DNA of 64,000 bases from contig OZ024765.1 of the NCBI GenBank assembly GCA_964016885.1, positions 9,734,001-9,798,000 on the forward strand, given 5' to 3'. Source of the stretch: Eledone cirrhosa. Lineage: Eukaryota. The notes beneath the pieces were generated by a model. That model ran no database searches. It had not been told where the DNA came from and saw only the letters and a list, made by a program, of their open reading frames with translations. A program made the translations under genes and the position numbers. Shown here piece after piece: positions 591 through 58,736 of this stretch; position 1 is the first letter of the stretch, and every line of letters begins with the position of its first letter.

Positions 591-795
591 TCACATTGAG
601 GCTTAGCTATTAGCCTCAGTTACACATGCTTCACAGATGGGCGGCTCAAGAGATGAGATTTTGGTTTAGCCTGATTAACAAGTCTGACAAGCAGATTGAG
701 GCTGGAGTTGTGTCTACAACACAAATATGGATCCTGAGCCACTCATCTGTGAAAGTTTCGTAACTGTGCTTTAATCAATAAAAACCTCAATGTGA
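591..795. mobile_element. Decayed MITE or fold-back element
   Basis: tcacattgagg / cctcaatgtga termini, plus the internal inverted pair ttcacagatgggcggctca / tgagccactcatctgtgaa. Confidence 0.5.
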
Positions 796-1020
796 AATCT
801 CATTTTGTTCTTTAACCCTTTAGCATTTAAACCGGCCATATCCAGCCAGAATTCCCTCATTTCTTTCTGTTCAAACCGGCTGTAACTGGCTATTCATCCA
901 ACATTAAGGTATTGTTCTCAAAATAAATGATATAAAAATCTCATAGATTCAATATTATGTAAGATAATTATGTGAGATAAAGCCTTAACTGTTAAAATAT
1001 AATAGTATATATAAAGTAAT

Positions 1021-1722: not shown

Positions 1723-1977
1723 CACACATTATATATATATCAAATTGGATGCAGTAAAAACCTGTTTGACCATTACTCACCAGAGTACTCGATACTTTGG
1801 GTAGTTGAGTATGGTAATATGAAAGGTCGGGACCCCGACGGCTGAGCTCTTGCCATTTCAACAGTCAGTTCCAGAGTTTGGAACTGACTGTGGAAACAGC
1901 AACAGTTAAGCCGACTCTTTCATATATATATATACAATATATTAACTAATGGAAACTATATTTCTAAAACCATATTT

Positions 1978-2041
1978 ATTTTATTATACATATTTCAAGG
2001 GCAACCAAGGCAAATTATGGTGCGCTTTCATCAGATAAAAT
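1978..2041 (-). ncRNA. Minimal type I hammerhead ribozyme motif (family A, inverted copy)
   Basis: Exact reverse complement of 2195-2258. Confidence 0.75.
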
Positions 2042-2194
2042 ACAGATTCGTTTTATAAATAAATATTGACATACCCGGAAAAAAGACAACCTTCATGGTT
2101 GGAGCTTCCTGGGTAGTCAGAACCGAGGAAGCTCCAACCATGAAGGTTGTCTTTTTTCCGGGTATGTCAATATTTATTTATAAAACGAATCTGT

Positions 2195-2258
2195 ATTTTA
2201 TCTGATGAAAGCGCACCATAATTTGCCTTGGTTGCCCTTGAAATATGTATAATAAAAT
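2195..2258 (+). ncRNA. Minimal type I hammerhead ribozyme motif (family A)
   Basis: attttat-CTGATGA-aagcgcacca taatttgcct tggttgccctt-GAAA-tatgta-TA-ataaaat. Stem I is a perfect 7 bp, stem II pairs, stem III is short and near-palindromic. Predicted cleavage after 2251. Confidence 0.75.
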
Positions 2259-3204
2259 AAATATGGTTTTAGAAATATAGTTTCCATTTGTTAATATATG
2301 TATATTTACTCCACTAATCTGTTATATTTAATTTGGTGGATTGGCAGAATCGGTAGAGCATTGGGTAAAATGCTTTGTGGCATTTGTTTGGGCTCTTTAT
2401 ATTCTGAGTTCAAATCCTGCCAAGTTTAGCTTTGCCTTTCATCCTTACAGGGTCGATAAAATATAAGTACCAGTAACATACTGGGGAGAGGGGTCAATTT
2501 AATCGACCTCTCCCGTCCCTATCAGAAATAGTAAAAAAATTGCTGGCCTTGTGCCTAAATTAGAAACCATTATTATTATTATTTTAAGGGCGGTGGATTG
2601 GCAGTGTCGGCAGAGAGTCAGACACCATGCTTTGCAGCATAGAGTTGTGGCCCTTTACGGCCTGGGCTGAAGTCCCACCAAGGTTAGCTTTGCCTTTCAT
2701 CCTTACGGGGGTCGATAAAATCAAGTACCAGTAATACACTGAGGTAATTGCTGGCCTTGTGCCAAAAGTTGAAACAATTTTTTTTTTTTTTAATTTCAAA
2801 ACAGTTCCATGCAAGTTCCTGCTGCAAAACTGGGTGCAACACTGCTGCACATCTGTAAAACATTGCAGGTGTACACCAATATATCATCATCACCGTAATC
2901 ATTATTTGCTGCTTTTCCTTGTTTTTTTGTTGTTGTTTCTTCAATGTTCTTCTTGTACAATAATATTTACTTGTTTTACTTCATTATAGTTGTTGTTGTT
3001 GTTTTATTTAATTCTTCTCCCCACCCCACAGAAACATCTTTTTTTCTTGACCCTTTCCATTACCATATCTCAAATGAAAGACACTGCTATATATATATAT
3101 GTCTATCTCTCTCTCTCTCTATATATATAAATATATGTATGTATATATATATATATATCTCTCTATATATATATATATGTGTCTATATCTCTCTCTATAT
3201 ATCA

Positions 3205-4190: not shown

Positions 4191-5509
4191 ATTAAGCTTC
4201 CTATATATATATATGTGTATATATATATAATGAGGCCGTGTAGGTGTCACGACAAAAAACACATGGTCCACGCTGTAATGTGGCTGTGTAGGTAACACGG
4301 TAAAAACCTCCCAGTCCACACTGTAAACGTGGTTGGTGTTAGGAAGGGCATCCAGCCGTAGAAAACCCACCAGACAGTCCTATATGAGCAGGACAACCAC
4401 TCTTGCCTCAAGTGGGAAAATTCCCGTCCAAAGCTATGCTAGCGTGGAAGATGGACGTTAAACGATGATGATGATATATGTCTATATCTATAAATATATA
4501 AATAAAATAAGAAAATGCGAAGTAGTTTCAGATGTTAAAGTCCTTTATTGATAACGGTGTGATACATATTCCAATGACGACAGTGGTCACACGATTCCAC
4601 CTAACCAGTGCCGTGATCTCATCAGACAGCTTCTTACATAGTAAGGTGACATTCTCGAGGCAATCCAATATATATAATTGTTTCTACGTTAGGTACAAGG
4701 CTAGCAAATTACCCAGTGCATTACTGGTACTTTATTTTATCGACCCCGTAAGGATGAAAGGCAAAGTTAACCTTGGCGGGATTTGAACTCATAAATCCAA
4801 TATATATATAATGTTCTCTAAAAGTTCCTGAAACTCTGAAGAAGGGAATTTTCGGTCCTGAAATATCAAGACAGAAGAAACAACAGCAACAGCAAAAAAC
4901 AAGACAAAGATTACCAGGTAACTTACTTTTTCTTTCCCTCATCTTACAGTCCATTTTGCATTAGTTAACCTTCTATCTCTTTCCACATTATATATATATA
5001 TCATCATCATCATCATTTTACGTCCACTTTTCCCTGCTTGCAAGGGTGGGACGGGAACTGATACTGGCTTGATTTCTACAGCTGGATGCCCTTCCTAACA
5101 CCAACCTCATTTACAGTGAGTGCTGGGTGCTTTTTTGCCGTGGCACCTCCACGACCACTTTGCAGTGGAATGATAGGGACCTCATTCCCTATCATCTCAT
5201 TTCTACAGCTGAGTAAACTGGAGCAATGTGAAATAAAGTCTCTTGCTCAAGGAAACAACACATCACCCGGTCCGAGAATTGAACTCACAACCTTTCGATT
5301 GCAAGGCCAATGCTCTAACCAGTAAGCCATATGCCTACATATATATTTATATCATCATCATCGTTTAACATCCATCTTCCATGCTAGCATAGGTTAGACG
5401 GTTTTGTTCCATCTGATGCAGGAACGGTCGGGAGACTGTGTCTCGCTCGCACGGAAGCATCTCTGGAAGGTTTTTTACAGCTGGATGCCCTTCTTAACAC
5501 CAACCTCAT

Positions 5510-6648
5510 TTACAGTGTTGACTGGGAGCCTTTTTACCGTGTCTCCTACACGGCCACCTTACAGTGTGGACTGGGAGCCTTTTTACAGTGTCTCCTACAT
5601 GGCCACCTTACAGTGTGGACTGGGAGCCTTTTTACCGTGTCTCCTACACGGCCACCTTACAGTGTGGACTGGGAGCCTTTTTACAGTGTCTCCTACATGG
5701 CCACCTTACAGTGTGGACTGGGAGCCTTTTTACTGTGTCTCCTACATGGCCACCTTACAGTGTGGACTGGGAGCCTTTTTACCGTATCTCCTACACGGCC
5801 ACCTTACAGTGTGGACTGGGAGCCTTTTTACAGTGTCTCCTACATGGCCACCTTACAGTGTGGACTGGGAGCCTTTTTACTGTGTCTCCTACATGGCCAC
5901 CTTACAGTGTGGACTAGGAGCCTTTTTACTGTGTCTCCTACATGGCCACCTTACAGTGTGGACTAGGAGCCTTTTTACTGTGTCTCCTACATGGCCACCT
6001 TACAGTGTGGACTAGGAGCCTTTTTACCGTGTCTCCTACATGGCCACCTTACAGTGTGGACTAGGAGCCTTTTTACTGTGTCTCCTACATGGCCACCTTA
6101 CAGTGTGGACTGGGAGCCTTTTTACCGTGTCTCCTACATGGCCACCTTACAGTGTGGACTAGGAGCCTTTTTACCGTGTCTCCTACATGGCCACCTTACA
6201 GTGTGGACTGGGAGCCTTTTTACTGTGTCTCCTACATGGCCACCTTACAGTGTGGACTAGGAGCCTTTTTACCGTGTCTCCTACATGGCCACCTTACAGT
6301 GTGGACTAGGAGCCTTTTTACTGTGTCTCCTACATGGCCACCTTACAGTGTGGACTGGGAGCCTTTTTACCGTGTCTCCTACATGGCCACCTTACAGTGT
6401 GGACTAGGAGCCTTTTTACCGTGTCTCCTACATGGCCACCTTACAGTGTGGACTGGGAGCCTTTTTACTGTCTCCTACACGGCCACCTTACAGTGTGGAC
6501 TGGGAGCCTTTTTACTGTGTCTCCTACACAACCACCTTACAGTGTGGACTGGGAGCCTTTTTACTGTGTCTCCTACACGGCCACCTTACAGTGTGGACTG
6601 GGAGCCTTTTTACCGTGTCTCCTACACGGCCACCTTACAGTGTGGACT
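5510..6648. repeat. 49-bp minisatellite, about 23 copies
   Basis: Unit ttacagtgtggactgggagcctttttaccgtgtctcctacacggccacc. Confidence 0.95.
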
Positions 6649-6792
6649 GTTGTGTCATCGACACAGTGGATGGAACGGGAGAGGGAGGGTGGGGTAGGAT
6701 GTGTGGGGTGTACATTGGGTTATAATATATAAAATTAGAATTTTATTTCTCGCCCTAGCACAGTTGATACATAAATGTAAGTATGCATACGT

Positions 6793-24793: not shown

Positions 24794-58736
<33,943 letters not shown>

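What the first reader, a model, noticed from the sequence alone, without database searches (positions are those of the whole stretch)
1937..2299. Near-perfect 363-bp palindrome made of two back-to-back hammerhead ribozymes
Seen: 174-bp arms (one mismatch, 15-bp spacer) next to a TA run. Each arm holds a complete type I hammerhead: a 7-bp perfect stem I (attttat/ataaaat), CUGAUGA, a paired stem II, GAAA, a tiny near-palindromic stem III (AUAUGUAU) and a UA cleavage site. Established: minimal hammerheads with self-complementary stem III occur in Penelope-like element (PLE) terminal repeats and retrozymes and are thought to act as dimers, and PLE insertions often carry inverted terminal copies. 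Inference: this is a young, non-coding, self-cleaving fold-back retroelement. Either strand's transcript contains one ribozyme plus its perfect antisense, so it could switch between self-cleavage and a long dsRNA hairpin (an ADAR or Dicer substrate).
Basis: partly seen in the sequence, partly recalled or inferred. Interest (0 to 1): 0.85.

Follow-up and report, generated by a model that had tools for sequence, protein, structure and literature searches.

The report
Twin-cDNA footprint of a Penelope retrotransposon
The palindrome is one of at least 151 short head-to-head copies of the start of a Penelope-like retrotransposon, each arm carrying a hammerhead ribozyme motif, and it was likely made when two reverse transcripts of one capped RNA were inserted back to back, which would explain how these elements get their inverted ends.

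Summary
The palindrome (1937-2299) and both type I hammerhead motifs are real, but this is not a stand-alone fold-back element. It is one of at least 151 dispersed head-to-head pairs of the 5' end (pLTR) of an autonomous Penelope-like element (PLE) found in this genome, whose ORF has the Hydra-clade motifs. Most copies read (TA)n, antisense +183..+1, junction, sense +1..+276, (TA)n. Junctions differ between copies (42 kinds in 68) but all lie within +1..+9. There a G often replaces the genomic C (152 sites; 0 of 30 sampled keep upstream sequence), the usual mark of a copied 5' cap. The two outer ends each lie 20 nt before a repeated motif, 93 nt apart. Best reading: two cDNAs are primed from opposite target strands on one capped sense RNA, run to the cap and join end to end. 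The ribozyme is a passenger: antisense precedes it on both strands and the hairpin is about 100 kcal/mol more stable, so a switch is unlikely. Inverted pLTRs, tails and PLE hammerheads are known. The cap footprint, bearing on the open sense-versus-antisense template question, was not found in ten literature searches.

The parts
1923..1934 (.). (TA)n target microsatellite at the left end
   Evidence: sequence; both flanks TA-rich in 52 of 66 complete copies
1935..2117 (-). left arm: antisense copy of pLTR +183..+1, ending at the proximal end site (inferred RT start site 1)
   Evidence: parent L165
1977..2042 (-). type I hammerhead motif of the left arm
   Evidence: descriptor scan
2118..2118 (-). 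extra G on - in place of the genomic C at -1; inferred copy of the 5' cap
2119..2125 (.). 7-nt junction insert shared only with sister copy L002, 175 kb away, where the centre is flipped relative to the tail
2126..2300 (+). right arm: sense pLTR from +8
2194..2259 (+). type I hammerhead motif, predicted cleavage after A2251, self-complementary stem III
2301..2323 (+). start of the one-sided PLE tail, cut short here (it runs to +276 in most copies)
2321..2335 (-). 15-nt match to the distal tail in inverted orientation, followed by an abundant SINE-like repeat (SINE label recalled, not tested)
   Evidence: repeat depth

Best explanation
The palindrome is an ORF-less insertion made of two head-to-head copies of the 5' end of a Penelope-like element with Hydra-clade motifs, likely formed when two reverse transcripts, primed from opposite strands of a cut (TA)n site, each ran to the capped 5' end of one sense RNA and were joined end to end. 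Shown: family structure, parent element, fixed outer ends (+183, +276), junctions confined to +1..+9, extra G in place of genomic C, arm concordance. Inferred: +1 is the Pol II start (TCCA+1CT, Inr-like); the G is the reverse-transcribed cap; two RT subunits bind two repeated motifs (+203, +296) and each starts 20 nt upstream of its motif, so the 93-nt tail equals the repeat period. Because both start sites lie in the 5' leader of the mRNA, priming there gives only short strong-stop-like cDNAs, joined by 0-3 nt microhomology or short inserts. The hammerhead (+76..+141 region) rides along and is predicted to be buried in duplex in any read-through transcript.
For: Parent L165: upstream pLTR, +1, hammerhead, ATG at +328, RT, CxCx5C linker, GIY-YIG, 3' UTR, second pLTR. 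66 of 87 palindromes have site 2 at one end and site 1 at the other. 42 distinct junctions in 68 parsed; tail arm longer in 33, other arm in 26, equal in 9; some junctions have a 0-1 nt loop, which simple fold-back priming cannot make. Base at -1: G at 152 sites; 0 of 30 sampled G sites keep upstream pLTR versus 21 of 23 C sites; 20 of 27 palindrome arms that reach +1 carry G; G at +1 occurs in copies of several subfamilies whose long copies have C; L003 has G on both arms. 83 loci abut (AT)3 at +1, 22 of them with a G that neither flank nor template supplies, versus 0 at a control position +28 (counted by hand from the listing). Arms share 212 variants versus a permuted mean of 39, maximum 75; 53 of 62 pairs are identical at three diagnostic sites. 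Repeat motif score was reached by 2 of 5000 shuffles; offsets are 20 and 20 nt. Literature: purified Anolis PLE protein cuts and extends both strands, starts RT at two internal sites that bound the tail, is predicted to be a dimer and does not need hammerhead cleavage (PMC11167929, parts 1-2 read); untemplated 5' G marks capped templates in L1 and SVA (PMC4859970, passages).
Against: No direct map of the start site or cap. Some G junctions can come from GAC microhomology with the other arm (L181, L182, L185, L187). Among TA-abutting ends 39 of 83 have no extra base and 11 have C, so the G is not obligatory. Only one control position was tested. Three insertions among 30 tail-end loci (L144, L157/158, L162/163) have site 2 at both ends, and L063 and probably L025 have arms of two subfamilies, so a single RNA with one site per arm is not universal. 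Arm concordance and junction symmetry could also come from later recombination or conversion between arms. The junction parser stops at the first mismatch, so the 33/26/9 split is rough. The window copy shares a rare junction with L002, which independent events would not give.
Confidence: 0.68

Rival explanations
1. One cDNA, primed at the distal site, runs to the cap, folds back on its own 3' end and copies itself as the second arm, ending at site 1.
For: Arms nearly always share subfamily and private variants (212 shared, 47 private). The first 16 nt of the RNA are partly self-complementary, and 21 of 68 junctions have 1-3 nt overlap.
Against: Junctions with a 0-1 nt loop, both polarities of the same junction, G on both arms in L003, two-subfamily arms in L063. 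It also needs exact termination at +183, where in vitro data point to priming (PMC11167929).
Confidence: 0.14
2. The palindrome is a non-autonomous fold-back element that moves as a unit, as RNA or as a MITE-like DNA transposon. At least the window copy or L002 may be a secondary copy made from a read-through transcript of a palindrome.
For: The window copy and L002 share a 7-nt insert found nowhere else, with different flanks and a flipped centre, which is what priming at sites 1 and 2 on a read-through palindromic RNA would give. Short junction types recur.
Against: 42 junction kinds in 68, a one-sided tail and ends fixed at PLE sites. The pair lies 175 kb apart, so ectopic gene conversion explains it as well. 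The same +1 stop occurs in non-palindromic insertions.
Confidence: 0.1
3. Self-priming on an antisense RNA template makes the head-to-head junction (model proposed in PMC3846280).
For: Published reading of head-to-head PLE palindromes, and compatible with intron retention (PMC3846280, Discussion read).
Against: Junctions pile up at the sense Inr-like position and carry an extra G there, which an antisense template does not predict.
Confidence: 0.05
4. The palindrome is a functional RNA switch between self-cleavage and dsRNA.
For: Intact hammerhead motifs on both arms; stems covary across families.
Against: Antisense comes first on both strands, with a 103 kcal/mol penalty. Private variants shared by both arms hit the core as often as elsewhere (6 in 12 core sites vs 28 in 93 non-ribozyme sites). 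Single PLE minimal hammerheads were inactive in vitro (PMC4209133, passages).
Confidence: 0.03

Closest known systems
Hydra clade of C-terminal EN+ Penelope-like elements (Craig et al. 2021, PMC8557442; includes Hydra-1_Obim)
   Same: RT then GIY-YIG, RW[K/R], DKT, CxCx5C linker, no CCHH, CxxC and CxH around E/N, (TA)n target, hammerhead in the pLTR
   Different: The unit here is about 4.4 kb with a long 3' UTR (listed Hydra families are mostly <3 kb). The hammerhead differs from that listed for Hydra-1_oBim. The tail is 93 nt rather than the 30-40 bp given for PLEs. No tree was built.
Head-to-head inverted pLTRs with junction palindromes and one-sided tail (Adineta vaga Penelope, PMC3846280; D. 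virilis Penelope, PMC2377424)
   Same: inverted 5' copy abutting a direct pLTR, tail on one side, Inr-like TCACT in the pLTR
   Different: Here at least 151 ORF-less copies have both arms ending at one position with an extra G. That paper proposed antisense self-priming and left sense versus antisense open.
Poseidon_Ac in vitro mechanism (Frangieh et al. 2024, PMC11167929)
   Same: two internal RT start sites bounding the tail, both strands extended, hammerhead near the ORF start and dispensable
   Different: Start sites here lie before the ATG and have TA microhomology to the target, and each precedes a repeated motif by 20 nt. The parts read do not address inverted-copy formation.
L1 twin priming and untemplated cap G (PMC4859970, passages)
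   Same: two primed cDNAs joined to give an inversion; extra G at full-length 5' ends
   Different: In L1 the two cDNAs cover different parts of the RNA. Here they overlap and both run to the cap, giving a palindrome.
Non-LTR retrozymes (PMC7229834, passages; bioRxiv 10.64898/2026.07.22.740005, first fifth read)
   Same: short, non-coding, PLE-derived, type I hammerhead
   Different: Retrozymes are head-to-tail tandems processed to circles. These are head-to-head pairs whose ends do not match the cleavage site.

Membership tests
Penelope-like element (EN+), parent | single ORF with RT and C-terminal GIY-YIG | tested here: met
   YRDD-type RT motif and GIY-YIG in order in L165, L167, L172. Pfam GIY-YIG E=2.7e-4 and 5e-3, below the curated cut-off. 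All copies seen are broken by frameshifts or stops.
Penelope-like element (EN+), parent | pLTR from partial tandem, inverted 5' copies, one-sided tail | tested here: met
Penelope-like element (EN+), parent | RT phylogeny within PLEs | not tested
   no reference RT set; 267 homologues at 32-41% identity (120 listed), including Hydra vulgaris and Octopus bimaculoides proteins
Hydra clade | RWK-type and DKT motifs | tested here: met
   RWR (R for K) and DKT in L165, L167, L172; definition in PMC8557442 section 11
Hydra clade | CxCx5C linker; no CCHH; CxxC and CxH around E/N | tested here: met
   the one CCHH-type hit in L166 lies in another frame and a different sequence
Hydra clade | (TA)n insertion and hammerhead present | tested here: met
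Neptune/Nematis/Poseidon clades | CCHH motif with two Cys between GIY and YIG | tested here: not met
   only one Cys in that stretch
type I hammerhead ribozyme | core CUGANGA/GAAA/UH with three stems | tested here: met
   12 hand-picked motifs give 95.6% paired cells and 10 of 15 pairs with two-sided change (partly circular, as rows came from a pairing descriptor)
type I hammerhead ribozyme | match to Rfam hammerhead models | tested here: not met
   none at E<=1
type I hammerhead ribozyme | self-cleavage | not testable with these tools
   needs an assay
non-LTR retrozyme | head-to-tail tandem units, each with a hammerhead | tested here: not met
   head-to-head pair
MITE / fold-back DNA transposon | symmetric termini and uniform internal structure among copies | tested here: not met
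   one-sided tail, 42 junction kinds in 68
MITE / fold-back DNA transposon | target-site duplication | tested here: inconclusive
   flanks are (TA)n, so a duplication cannot be read

The most novel reading that the evidence does not exclude
These palindromes are a genome-wide fossil record of the PLE integration step: a protein dimer sits on two repeated RNA motifs of one capped sense mRNA, primes both target strands, and the two cDNAs join 3' to 3'. This one mechanism would account for the inverted pLTR, the tail (whose length equals the motif period) and the excess of ORF-less pLTR copies, and would settle the sense-versus-antisense template question. Some palindromes may then be re-mobilised as units that flip their centre each round.
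Probability: 0.5. Interest if true: 0.7.

Novelty: new variant of a known kind. Interest (0 to 1): 0.5.

Why it matters
How PLEs make their inverted repeats and tails is stated as unresolved in PMC3846280, PMC8557442 and PMC11167929. This family gives countable footprints (a cap-like G at one position, two fixed start sites in register with a repeated motif, concordant arms) and a 330-nt RNA on which each step can be tested in vitro. It also leaves at least 151 long near-perfect hairpin templates in the genome, a possible dsRNA source (untested). The ribozyme-switch idea is probably wrong.

Tried and rejected
Rfam: no hammerhead match, only low-complexity miRNA hits. A pattern with the sister subfamily's upstream bases found nothing. 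One search was meant to find the tail's continuation but admitted the TA-ended form; it was used instead as a count (2,886 tail ends) and a 30-locus sample. Sequencing runs: no RNA holder listed. Contigs of three runs from one sample cover all bins of the window stretch, but no listed piece spans it, so they say nothing on the junction, start site or cleavage. PDB sequence search of an RT piece: 0 hits at E<=1. Pfam did not recognise the RT pieces. A-to-I editing signature in shared variants: none. Segmental duplication between the window copy and L002: rejected, as only dispersed repeats match in 22 kb versus 30 kb of flank; the third, one-mismatch junction hit L208 is unrelated. Neptune assignment considered and dropped. 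Whether shared private variants come from the source RNA or later arm-to-arm conversion could not be separated; their negative correlation with one-arm variants (rho -0.33, p 0.008) fits both. Earlier findings: none. Ten paper searches showed no report of a cap G or twin priming in PLEs. Subscription papers and bioRxiv supplements were not visible and may hold such a model.

Full report
Observation. The inverted repeat is as described: one arm mismatch (1947/2289) and a partly paired 15-nt centre. Each arm holds a type I hammerhead motif with an 8-bp stem I, CUGAUGA, a paired stem II, GAAA, AUAUGUAU and A17 at 2251. Rfam does not score it. Across all loci fetched, 233 of 246 descriptor hits (overlapping loci included) have one of three self-complementary stem III octamers, a property the descriptor did not demand. 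Twelve hand-picked motifs from several families covary in all three stems, including the inner stem III pairs (partly circular). This matches the dimer-type PLE hammerheads of PMC4209133 (passages read). The host is probably a cephalopod; this is an inference from the repeat landscape (recalled) and one homologue name, and no call names it.

A family, not a single oddity. A genome search gave 883 candidates; 35 of the 40 scored loci are near full length. An exact pattern across the centre matches 151 sites, with 0 in the control. In 87 fetched loci (one duplicate dropped) the usual form is (TA)n, antisense arm, junction, sense arm with an extra 93-nt tail, (TA)n. 66 of 87 have the distal end on one side and the proximal end on the other, and 52 of those 66 have TA runs at both flanks. 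The window copy's tail is cut at 2323. Junctions vary: 42 kinds among 68 that could be parsed, all within +1..+9 of the unit; the tail arm is longer in 33, the other arm in 26, and they are equal in 9 (the parser stops at the first mismatch). This rules out an assembly chimera as the general cause and argues against one mobile palindromic unit.

The parent. Loci with two pLTRs several kb apart contain the autonomous element. In L165 the order is upstream pLTR, +1, hammerhead, proximal site (+183), distal site (+276), ATG (+328), RT, linker, GIY-YIG, long 3' UTR, second pLTR ending at the proximal site. The ORF pieces show RWR, DKT, YRDD, CxCx5C, no CCHH, and CxxC/CxH around E/N. This is the definition of the Hydra clade in PMC8557442 (section 11 and supplement rows read). 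No tree was built. The arms are thus the first 183 and 276 nt of the presumed mRNA leader.

The stop at +1 and the extra G. The 21-mer starting at +1 occurs at 994 sites: 842 preceded by A, C or T and 152 by G; 562 have the genomic TCC. In samples of 30 and 30 (the first listed), 21 of 23 C sites keep upstream pLTR, against 0 of 30 G sites and 0 of 7 A sites. Of 27 palindrome arms that reach +1, 20 carry G. G at +1 also appears in copies of other subfamilies (L026, L030, L035, L036) whose long copies have C. Where +1 directly follows (AT)3 there are 83 loci: 39 with no extra base, 22 G, 11 C, 8 A, 3 T (hand count, 17 overlapping duplicates removed). The same pattern at +28 gives 0 (one control only). 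Untemplated G at 5' ends is read as a copied cap in L1 and SVA (PMC4859970, passages). Against this: some G junctions can be GAC microhomology with the other arm, and no start-site data were available. The window copy has this G at 2118 on the - strand.

Two start sites. Non-tail arms end mostly at TTG|TATA and tail arms at CTGC|ATAT, both with TA microhomology to the target. In the parent each end lies 20 nt before an imperfect repeat (TGTTGAGYGCTTTA at +203 and +296; 2 of 5000 shuffles reach the score), and the repeat is present in three more parent copies. The tail length equals the repeat period. PMC11167929 (parts 1-2 of 4 read) showed for an Anolis PLE two internal RT starts bounding the tail, extension of both strands, a predicted dimer and no need for hammerhead cleavage. 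In 30 loci sampled by tail end, 12 have an inverted arm ending at the proximal site and only 2 tail arms run upstream of +1. Three insertions have the distal site at both ends, an exception to the rule.

One RNA or two. In 62 loci with both arms intact, arms share 212 variants against 39 expected from permuted partners (maximum 75). 53 pairs are identical at three diagnostic sites, 3 are uninformative and 6 differ; L063 clearly and L025 probably carry arms of two subfamilies. So mostly one template, or later conversion, and sometimes two. Recurrent shared alleles largely avoid the hammerhead core (1 in 12 sites vs 13 in 31 stem II/loop sites), and the stem III change keeps its palindrome. Private shared alleles do not avoid the core (6 in 12 sites), so the ribozyme is conserved in the parent lineage and not demonstrably in the palindromes.

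Mechanism. Shown: anatomy, parent, fixed ends, junction cluster, extra G. Inferred: the protein binds the two motifs in the mRNA leader, nicks both strands of (TA)n, primes one cDNA at +183 and one at +276, both run to the cap, and their 3' ends join by 0-3 nt microhomology or short inserts. Fold-back of one cDNA is the main rival. It explains arm identity but not 0-1 nt loops, both junction polarities, G on both arms (L003) or two-subfamily arms. The antisense-template model of PMC3846280 (Discussion and passages read) does not predict a G at the sense start. The switch idea fails on folding: the antisense arm is 5' of the ribozyme on both strands, and forcing the hammerhead raises the energy from -291.1 to -188.4 kcal/mol.

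Unexplained. The window copy's 7-nt junction insert occurs in only one other family copy, L002, 175 kb away on the same contig, with different flanks and the centre flipped relative to the tail. Secondary retrotransposition from a read-through palindromic RNA predicts this flip; local ectopic conversion also fits. Both arms of the window copy differ from L002 and from the column majority at the same five sites, so arm identity does not prove youth.

Verdict. A new variant of a known kind. Head-to-head pLTRs, tails (also PMC2377424, passages) and PLE hammerheads (PMC7229834, passages) are published, and an octopus repeat survey (PMC13282606, passages) does not mention hammerheads or palindromes. 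The cap footprint, the motif register and the twin-cDNA reading were not seen in ten searches (listings only for papers not named above). Interest 0.5.

Noticed in passing
window 46452-46959: Sister-subfamily insertion: tail arm on - running about 130 nt upstream of +1, joined inside the hammerhead to a short sense arm; ends in TA runs.
   Followed up: partly
window 26870-26936 (+): Diverged hammerhead of a related PLE subfamily, with tail; no inverted arm found within 26500-27200.
   Followed up: partly
L202:1875-1949, L010:2877-2951, L179:1057-1115, L184:2275-2339, L200:1884-1949, L165:1455-1519: At least three further hammerhead families in this genome, one with stem III AUGCGCAU; some lie next to insertions of this family.
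   Followed up: partly
L176, 110 nt upstream of the G site: Junction holds several tandem re-copies of the first bases of the RNA, suggesting repeated template jumps at the 5' end, telomerase-like.
   Followed up: no
window 5363-6787: 49-bp minisatellite (about 24 copies) derived from a unit of a dispersed repeat also at 1186, 3364 and 5111.
   Followed up: no
window 764-1010 and 1432-1645: Diverged inverted pair of a repeat seen by eye, flanking another dispersed repeat (1022-1417); possibly a MITE-like element.
   Followed up: no
window 1855-1890: Short perfect hairpin-forming palindrome upstream of the insertion.
   Followed up: no
L062: Both flanks of this palindrome continue as an inverted match for about 20 nt beyond the TA runs.
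   Followed up: no
L165:2240-2660: The parent's 3' UTR contains an expanded T-rich 7-nt microsatellite.
   Followed up: no
L208: Unrelated hairpin-forming repeat next to a TA/TG run.
   Followed up: no
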